Assembly: GCA_951406725.2 (NCBI GenBank)
Contig: OX597837.1
Coordinates: forward strand, 40,734,001-40,798,000
Length of the DNA: 64,000 nt
Source: Octopus vulgaris
Taxonomy: Eukaryota
Direction of reading: 5' to 3'
The position numbers were made by a program, and so were the translations under genes. The notes below the pieces were generated by a model. The model had not been told where the DNA came from, did no database searches, and saw nothing but the letters and a program-made list of their open reading frames with translations. The stretch's first letter is position 1, and each line of letters opens with the position of its first letter. This document shows, in pieces, positions 15,111-16,099 of this stretch.

Positions 15111-15140
15111 TGCATATATATATATATACATATATACATT

Positions 15141-15212
15141 ATAGCGCTGAAGAAGGAATTCAAACTCCCCTTTTTTTATATGTTTGTGATCCAGAAACAC
15201 CGTGTTCGCTAT
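15141..15212 (+). ncRNA. Type-I hammerhead ribozyme motif, copy 1
   Basis: atagcg|CTGAAGA|a|gga...tcc|a GAA|acac c gtgt|t|cgctat; 6-bp stem I. Confidence 0.7.
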
Positions 15213-15695
15213 TAACGGTAAGTGACTGAATTCGTATGTTTGCCACTCCGGTTTTGTGTATGTGAGCCGCAAGGGCCTTCGTTTTTGGAATCTCCACTTA
15301 TAGAAATGGAAAAAACGGTCTTTGACTGCCATTTCTAATTCCTTCGGTATGAGGCAAAACAGCTCGCTGCTAGCCAACTTATTTTTCTTTACTATATACT
15401 GAACCTTACAAAGGTCTTGACAATTATTTTGTCGTATTTACATACCGAAATTTACCGGTAAATAATTGTTGGTTACTTGAAAAACCACAGGAAAATTATT
15501 TACCATTTTTATTGTATTACCATGTGGATTCCTCATTCCATTACGATTACCCAGAAGGCGCGCATGGCAGAATTTTGGAGGGAAAATTTACGTTCCCAGT
15601 CGTTACTTGGTTTTAGCATCTGCGCACTTCCCCCCACTATCTGATGTCGCTGGGTCAGAAGTGAGGGCTGGTGGCATTTGATAAAGCTAACGAAT

Positions 15696-15767
15696 ATAGC
15701 GCTGAAGAAGGAATTCAAACTCCCCTTTTTTTATATGTTTGTGATCCAGAAACACCATGTTCGCTAT
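15696..15767 (+). ncRNA. Type-I hammerhead ribozyme motif, copy 2
   Basis: Same as copy 1, with stem III acaccatgt. Confidence 0.65.
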
Positions 15768-16099
15768 TAACGGTAAGTGACTGAATTCGTATGTTTGCCA
15801 CTCCGGTTTTGTGTATGTGAGCCGCAAGGGCCTTCGTTTTTGGAATCTCCACTTATAGAAATGGAAAAAACGGTCTTTGACTGCCATTTCTAATTCCTTC
15901 GGTATGAGGCAAAACAGCTCGCTGCTAGCCAACTTATTTTTCTTTACTATATATATATATATATATATATATATATATATATATATATATATATATATAT
16001 ATATATATATATATATATATATATATATATATATATATATATATATATATATATATATATATATACATATATATATACATATATATATATGTGTGTGTG

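What the first reader, a model, noticed from the sequence alone, without database searches (positions are those of the whole stretch)
15140..15953. Candidate retrozyme: tandem hammerheads 555 nt apart in near-identical direct repeats
Seen: two ~258-bp repeats with one visible mismatch, each opening with atagcg-CTGAAGA-a-gga..tcc-a-GAA-acacc(g/a)tgt-t-cgctat, separated by ~297 bp without a credible ORF, all inside (TA)n. Predicted cuts near 15206 and 15761 would release a 555-nt RNA. Established: retrozymes are non-coding elements with HHR-bearing direct repeats that yield circular RNAs, and Penelope-like pseudo-LTRs have a similar layout. Inference: a young non-autonomous element copied from a circular or end-to-end template (about 1.5 units), possibly undescribed in this lineage. 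The A opposite A at the base of stem II is unusual.
Basis: partly seen in the sequence, partly recalled or inferred. Interest (0 to 1): 0.88.

Follow-up and report, generated by a model that had tools for sequence, protein, structure and literature searches.

The report
Penelope-borne retrozyme clan with twin starts
This is one copy of a 555-base non-coding repeat that carries a predicted self-cutting hammerhead RNA and has spread through this animal genome into TA microsatellites, with ends that look like those left by Penelope-like retrotransposons, which likely do the copying.

Summary
In detail: two 259-nt repeats (one mismatch), 555 nt apart, each with a type I hammerhead (HHR). They are not LTRs. 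The insert is 1.47 head-to-tail copies of a 555-nt non-coding unit. The family is young and dispersed (442 exact hits of a 32-mer). It belongs to a clan of related ~550-565-nt units with 1,430 HHR-pattern hits. In 118 mapped insertions the 5' ends vary, the 3' ends pile up at unit positions 259 and 378 (152 of 172), and 165 of 172 run into (TA)n. Fifty-four insertions have two inverted arms. Where both ends could be classed, 38 of 39 pair one 259 end with one 378 end. That is the Penelope-like (PLE) 'tail' signature, with an unusually long tail (119 nt). The HHR helices, and a 9-bp helix enclosing the first end, show compensatory changes across the clan. Verdict: a new animal non-LTR retrozyme, likely copied in trans by a PLE enzyme, probably from an RNA circle. 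Cleavage, circles and the partner PLE were not shown, and the predicted fold does not favour the active ribozyme.

The parts
15140..15953 (+). Whole insertion: 1.47 tandem copies of the 555-nt unit, 5'-truncated at unit position ~1, ending at the family's main 3' end
15140..15694 (+). One 555-nt unit (numbering used in this report: position 1 = 15140)
15141..15212 (+). Hammerhead 1 (type I, PLE-like): stem I 15141-15146/15207-15212, core 15147-15153, extra A 15154, stem II base 15155-15157/15190-15192, extra A 15193, GAAA 15194-15197, near-palindromic stem III; predicted cut after 15206
15696..15767 (+). Hammerhead 2, identical but for G>A in loop 3 (15757); predicted cut after 15761
15207..15761 (+). 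Predicted 555-nt cut-to-cut monomer RNA; highly self-paired (z -4.9, 0 of 100 shuffles as stable)
15323..15354 (+). Clan-wide conserved motif upstream of the first 3' end (second copy 15878-15909)
15343..15449 (+). Conserved 9-bp long-range helix, 15343-15351 with 15441-15449, enclosing the first 3' end; candidate RT-recognition element
15393..15398 (+). End E1 (unit 254-259, TATATA, ambiguous within the TA microhomology): inferred RT start site 1; used by this copy at 15953
15399..15517 (+). 119-nt 'tail' between E1 and E2 (unit 378 = 15517, inferred RT start site 2)
15106..15139 (.). Left part of the (TA)n target, degenerate
15954..16090 (.). Right part of the (TA)n target

Best explanation
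It is a 1.47-unit insertion of a dispersed, non-coding, hammerhead-bearing 555-nt tandem retroelement (an animal non-LTR retrozyme) that is likely copied in trans by the reverse transcriptase and GIY-YIG endonuclease of a Penelope-like element. Shown in DNA: dispersal, tandem units, two fixed 3' ends, variable 5' ends, inverted arms, the (TA)n target and conserved RNA helices. Inferred steps: (1) a copy with two hammerheads, like this one, is transcribed; (2) the hammerheads cut, probably as a dimer through the palindromic stem III or with protein help, releasing a 555-nt monomer that is likely ligated to a circle; (3) a PLE protein binds the conserved structure around the 9-bp helix and nicks (TA)n; (4) reverse transcription starts internally at E1 or E2, where the RNA has short TA-like matches, runs past the ligation joint and stops at random, giving 0.2-4.6 units; (5) in two-armed insertions one target strand is primed at E1 and the other at E2, and the two cDNAs join head to head. 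I put PLE-type mobilisation at about 0.9 and the circular template at about 0.65 given that.
For: Family size: 442 exact 32-mer hits, control 0. Ends: of 172 outer 3' ends in 118 insertions, 95 are E1, 57 E2 and 20 other; 165 of 172 run into TA repeats. Arms: 54 of 118 insertions are inverted two-armed. Of the 39 with both ends at E1 or E2, 38 are mixed, 1 is E1+E1 and 0 are E2+E2 (19.5 mixed expected if independent, P 7e-11). The same two ends appear in other clan families. One autonomous PLE insertion here also has a tail on one arm only (L137). This matches the published PLE tail on one inverted pLTR (PMC3846280; 10.1101/2021.04.23.441226) and the two internal RT starts on both target strands shown in vitro (PMC11167929). 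HHR: in 13 natural copies 97.6% of cells pair, 7 of 13 pairs have compensatory changes including C3-G8 to U3-A8, and slid controls pair 29-40%. Helix: all 9 pairs hold in 13 of 13 copies, G-C becomes A-U in 4, and pairing probability is 0.78-1.0 in the circle. For an endless template: 128 passes cross the cut site; arm lengths fit an exponential in the 58-locus motif-ascertained set (KS P 0.36); passes within one insertion differ by 0.8% against a 3.9% median to other loci, and 41 rare variants are shared by all passes of an insertion; two runs hold a 585-nt contig (555+30), the length expected of a closed loop, one of them joining unit end to start. Young intact RT + GIY-YIG PLEs that also end in (TA)n exist in the genome.
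Against: No autonomous PLE sharing the clan's HHR or helix was found among 52 PLE-bearing loci, and none of the PLE fragments near 160 clan loci lies directly upstream of a unit; that sample is small against thousands of candidates. Equilibrium folding does not favour the active HHR: stem II base probability is 0.01-0.09. An unpaired base next to G12 would have been rejected by the criteria of PMC3088659. A successful subfamily carries U4C (41 of 165 passes), which lowers activity in vitro (PMC3088659). In the one PLE tested in vitro, HHR mutants inserted normally and uncut RNA was the main template (PMC11167929). Only 1 of 9 Xenopus retrozyme dimers cleaved (10.64898/2026.07.22.740005). The 585-nt contigs would also arise from tandem transcripts or DNA, and the runs are only guessed to be RNA. 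220 rare variants are in only some passes, and within-insertion divergence is not below the nearest other locus (24 of 61), so a circle is not proven.
Confidence: 0.62

Rival explanations
1. Same PLE parasite, but the template is uncut linear RNA (read-through or multimeric transcripts, with template jumps rebuilding arrays). The hammerhead is slow or serves another step, and circles are not the intermediate.
For: HHR cleavage was dispensable in vitro (PMC11167929). The active fold is predicted to be weak and a U4C subfamily has spread. Four of 177 segments stop at unit 67-68, the predicted cut site (0.69 expected, P 0.006), so some templates may have been linear cut RNA.
Against: The core and helices are kept with compensatory changes across families about 60-75% alike. 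Unit length stays ~550-565 nt across the clan. Arm lengths show no ceiling. Other 5-nt windows hold as many 5' ends as 67-68, so that pile-up is weak.
Confidence: 0.29
2. The copies are truncated 3' ends (pseudo-LTR stumps) of an unseen autonomous PLE whose untranslated end happens to hold 555-nt tandem repeats.
For: Most PLE copies are 5'-truncated and most PLE hammerheads occur as such stumps (PMC4209133). The partner was not found.
Against: Arms continue upstream only as further units, up to 4.56. 47 of 64 one-direction insertions have TA directly at the 5' junction. The three flank pairs that match near both junctions stop at different unit positions. No ORF is contiguous with a unit in 160 clan loci.
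Confidence: 0.05
3. LTR-type retrozyme (plant kind) or a local duplication or satellite expanded by unequal crossing-over.
For: The single locus looks like LTR-internal-LTR. Satellite-like growth has been proposed for vertebrate retrozymes (10.64898/2026.07.22.740005).
Against: The left border is not shared between copies, the HHR is type I, the 3' ends are fixed at two sites, inversions are frequent, and arrays are short and dispersed over many chromosomes.
Confidence: 0.03

Closest known systems
Animal non-LTR retrozymes (Cervera and de la Pena 2020, PMC7229834; Li, Clavereau and Pollet 2026, 10.64898/2026.07.22.740005)
   Same: Non-coding tandem units, one type I HHR per unit, low GC, highly self-paired monomer, coexistence with autonomous PLEs, PLE mobilisation proposed.
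   Different: The unit (555 nt) is longer than the 170-400 nt units tested as circles but within the 51-972 bp range of the 2026 survey. The HHR is PLE-like, with a long helix II and an extra base before G12. Arrays are short and dispersed. Here the insertions carry PLE tail and inversion marks, whereas those papers argue from co-occurrence and pLTR homology. Cleavage and circles are untested here, and no pLTR homologue was found.
Endonuclease-bearing Penelope-like elements: pseudo-LTR, inverted arm and tail (PMC3846280; 10.1101/2021.04.23.441226; PMC11167929)
   Same: Partial tandems, 5' truncation, inverted 5' arm, tail on one end only, two internal starts downstream of the HHR, (TA)n or AT-rich target.
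   Different: No ORF. The tail is 119 nt (about 100-125 nt in sister families) against 30-40 nt in the literature and about 30-41 nt in autonomous PLEs of this genome.
Minimal PLE hammerheads (Cervera and de la Pena 2014, PMC4209133)
   Same: Extra base between A9 and 10.1, G10.1-C11.1, long helix II, palindromic helix III, U3-A8 covariation.
   Different: There is a constant additional base between 11.1 and G12 (A in 12 of 13 aligned copies, C in 1), which I did not see described in the parts read. Stem I is a full 6 bp.
Plant LTR retrozymes (PMC4918200; search listing, and as summarised in the papers above)
   Same: Two HHRs one unit apart that could release a circle.
   Different: Type III HHR, true LTRs, PBS/PPT, 4-bp TSD and Gypsy partner; none of these fits here.

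Membership tests
Animal non-LTR retrozyme | Tandem non-coding units of a few hundred bases | tested here: met
   555-nt unit, arrays up to 4.56 units, no ORF
Animal non-LTR retrozyme | Type I HHR in each unit, at least two consecutive | tested here: met
   Two in this copy; 28 of 119 insertions have two or more whole HHRs in one arm; covariation; the core has a non-standard extra base and Rfam gives no hit
Animal non-LTR retrozyme | No LTR organisation (no fixed 5' border) | tested here: met
   5' ends scatter over the unit
Animal non-LTR retrozyme | Self-cleavage | not testable with these tools
   Only indirect: conservation speaks for it, predicted misfolding against it
Animal non-LTR retrozyme | Accumulation as circular RNA | tested here: inconclusive
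   585-nt contigs in 2 of 4 runs laid; runs only guessed to be RNA, and contigs cannot tell circles from tandems
PLE-mobilised insertion | Fixed 3' end with optional tail, partial tandems, 5' truncation, inverted arm | tested here: met
   the tail is longer than usual
PLE-mobilised insertion | Microsatellite or AT-rich target | tested here: met
   165 of 172 outer 3' ends run into TA repeats
PLE-mobilised insertion | Sequence shared with the pLTR of an autonomous PLE in the same genome | tested here: inconclusive
   No match in 52 PLE-bearing loci; the searches returned mainly a few high-copy families out of 6,136 and 14,465 candidates
Autonomous PLE | RT plus GIY-YIG ORF | tested here: not met
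Plant LTR retrozyme | Type III HHR in true LTRs | tested here: not met
   Type I topology, variable left border
Plant LTR retrozyme | PBS, PPT and 4-bp TSD | not tested
   No PBS or PPT search was run; a TSD cannot be read inside (TA)n

The most novel reading that the evidence does not exclude
An old, independently evolving clan of ~555-nt circular RNA parasites, in effect the SINEs of Penelope-like elements, has no pLTR parent left and captures PLE enzymes through a conserved RNA fold. Its insertions reveal the general PLE mechanism: a dimeric enzyme primes the two target strands at two different, structurally fixed sites of the same RNA circle, which at once explains the tail, the head-to-head inversion and the more-than-unit copies. 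Its hammerhead, with an extra base before G12, would be an active, undescribed core variant.
Probability: 0.3. Interest if true: 0.75.

Novelty: new variant of a known kind. Interest (0 to 1): 0.5.

Why it matters
That animal retrozymes are moved by PLE enzymes is still a hypothesis built on co-occurrence and sequence kinship, and how PLEs make tails and inverted arms is described in the literature as unresolved. This family gives hundreds of young, short, ORF-free insertions with a near-strict one-E1-plus-one-E2 rule and a covarying helix at the start site. That is a small, defined RNA on which RT recognition, twin internal priming and the circle question can be tested directly. The class itself is known, which caps the interest.

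Tried and rejected
Rfam: no hammerhead hit. Partner search: a GIY-YIG family search, a PLE protein search, BLAST and profiles of the clan HHR and helix over 52 PLE-bearing loci gave only separate clan insertions in the same (TA)n. 40 loci fetched from the clan-motif and clan-HHR hit lists (39 from sister families, one from the 548-nt subfamily) showed no ORF directly upstream of a unit. Laying contigs of four runs at 80% likeness on a sister unit showed no long contig leading to an ORF. A DNA search with the tail alone returned only family copies. No RNA holder is listed on record, and one run laid nothing; neither is evidence on expression. The pile-up of 5' ends at the cut site is weak: P 0.006 in all loci and 0.04 in the motif-ascertained set, and other windows are as high. 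The pile-up near unit 34-36 may be an alignment artefact of the divergent loop II. The helix probabilities printed used wrong indices and were redone. The literature searches listed no paper describing cephalopod hammerheads or retrozymes. Repbase and Dfam could not be searched and no supplements were read, so the families may already be catalogued there.

Full report
Observation. The window holds two 259-nt repeats, 15140-15398 and 15695-15953, which differ only at 15202/15757 and are 555 nt apart. Each starts with a type I hammerhead (15141-15212, 15696-15767) whose predicted cuts, after 15206 and 15761, are 555 nt apart. These were the only hits of a generic scan of both window strands. There is no ORF and no PLE protein similarity in the window. 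TA repeats flank the insert. Rfam has no matching hammerhead model. The host is an animal with a 2.8-Gb genome. Its SINE-like repeats remind me of Octopus; that is recalled and was not tested.

The family. A search with one unit gave 143 matches from only 40 of 1,133 candidates scored. An exact 25-mer of the HHR occurs 76 times and an exact 32-mer near the 3' end 442 times, with reversed controls at 0. I mapped 120 loci against the window's unit and dropped two: L033 duplicates L031, and L032 abuts a gap. They came from three searches, so long copies and copies with an HHR are over-represented; 58 loci of contigs C1-C3 found by the 32-mer form a less biased set (three further C3 loci were not fetched). 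Of 118 insertions, 64 run in one direction and 54 have two inverted arms with 3' ends outward. Of 172 outer 3' ends, 95 lie at unit ~259 (E1), 57 at ~378 (E2) and 20 elsewhere; 165 run into TA repeats. 5' ends scatter. The window copy is therefore a 1.47-unit partial tandem ending at E1, and its left border is accidental. In two-armed insertions with both ends at E1 or E2, 38 of 39 have one of each (P 7e-11 against independence); 15 others have one non-standard end.

The clan. A degenerate form of the 3' motif occurs 1,290 times and a pattern for this HHR architecture 1,430 times, control 0. By eye these are at least eight families. Tandem spacings are about 547-565 nt, and the same two 3' ends recur. 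Where sister families align to the window unit, identity is 63-78%. In 13 natural HHR copies 97.6% of cells pair and 7 of 13 pairs show two-sided changes, in stem I, stem II, stem III and C3-G8/U3-A8; 0 of 500 shuffles reach the covariation score and slid controls pair 29-40% (the copies are related and two rows are misaligned by one base). The base after A9 is A, C or absent, while a base before G12 is always present. A 9-bp helix (15343-15351 with 15441-15449) encloses E1. It pairs in 13 of 13 copies with one G-C to A-U exchange in four and is near-certain in the folded circle but weak in the linear precursor. The monomer folds far better than shuffles (z -4.9).

Mechanism. Published PLE insertions show partial tandems, 5' truncation, an inverted 5' arm, a 30-40-bp tail on one end and a microsatellite bias (10.1101/2021.04.23.441226, passages; PMC3846280, passages). 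A purified PLE protein nicks and extends both strands of AT-rich DNA and starts at two internal RNA sites that delimit the tail (PMC11167929, main text). E1 and E2 are inferred to be such starts; both end in TA-like letters. The genome has young intact RT + GIY-YIG PLEs ending in (TA)n, and one of them shows a tail on one arm only. None sampled shares the clan's HHR or helix, and no PLE frame lies directly upstream of a unit in 160 clan loci. The partner is therefore unidentified.

Template. 128 passes cross the cut site. In the 58-locus set arm lengths fit an exponential (84 arms, KS P 0.36); in all loci they do not (P 0.005), as expected from the selection for long copies. Passes within one insertion are 0.8% apart against 3.9% to other loci, and 41 rare variants are shared by all passes, but 220 are not. 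Two of four runs laid have 585-nt contigs, the length of a closed 555-nt loop, but they are only guessed to be RNA. All this fits a circle and does not exclude uncut multimers. Against efficient cutting: the active fold is not favoured, a U4C subfamily has spread (41 of 165 passes; PMC3088659, passages), and HHR activity was dispensable in vitro (PMC11167929). The near-palindromic stem III can pair between copies (-3.7 kcal/mol for this copy's two HHRs, about -7 for matched ones), as described for PLE hammerheads (PMC4209133, parts 1-2 of 4). Four of 177 segments stop at the cut site, a weak hint of in vivo cleavage.

Comparison and novelty. It meets the sequence-level definition of an animal non-LTR retrozyme (PMC7229834, parts 2-4 of 6; 10.64898/2026.07.22.740005, parts 1-3 of 5); cleavage and circles are untested. 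It differs in its PLE-like HHR with an extra core base, a tail about three times the usual length, and direct PLE insertion marks. Searches with octopus or cephalopod terms listed no description of it, and a 2026 octopus repeat annotation does not mention ribozymes in its main text (PMC13282606, passages). Supplements and repeat databases were not seen. Earlier notes of this scan report similar systems in other genomes (unchecked) and none here.

Verdict: a real feature; a new variant of a known kind; interest 0.5.

Noticed in passing
L133:1768-5468 and L130-L136 (e.g. G000:C6:133342000-133351999): Young autonomous PLE with two overlapping frames (479 aa with no Pfam hit, then 781 aa RT + GIY-YIG), a pseudo-LTR, a minimal hammerhead-like motif with U3-A8 core, a ~41-nt tail (L114) and (TA)n target.
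   Followed up: partly
L166:5828-7501 (-), L230-L241: A second, very high-copy and very young PLE family (98-99% protein identity among 131 scored hits, open frames up to ~1,200 aa) with a long low-complexity 3' region and a minimal hammerhead-like motif before (TA)n.
   Followed up: partly
L118 (both strands); L113/L142: Two further hammerhead-bearing non-coding elements unrelated to the clan, with palindromic stem III, sitting beside PLE insertions; the L118 one has inverted arms.
   Followed up: no
L169, L178, L181, L195 and others: A 547-548-nt subfamily with a U4C core change, shorter loop II and perfectly palindromic stem III has spread widely.
   Followed up: partly
L031, L032, L033 (G000:C13:264500-304000): The same multi-unit insertion appears duplicated in inverted orientation ~30 kb apart, with another array next to an N gap: a segmental duplication or an assembly artefact.
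   Followed up: no
L204: The flanks of one insertion are reverse complements of each other over ~15 nt, an inverted duplication of the target.
   Followed up: no
window 12004-12437, 13197-13457, 16182-16290, 16789-16870: SINE-like dispersed repeats, including an inverted pair with 261-nt arms at 83%.
   Followed up: no
L127:1501-1650: A GIY-YIG hit that looks like an exon of a host nuclease gene (SLX1-like, recalled) rather than a PLE.
   Followed up: no
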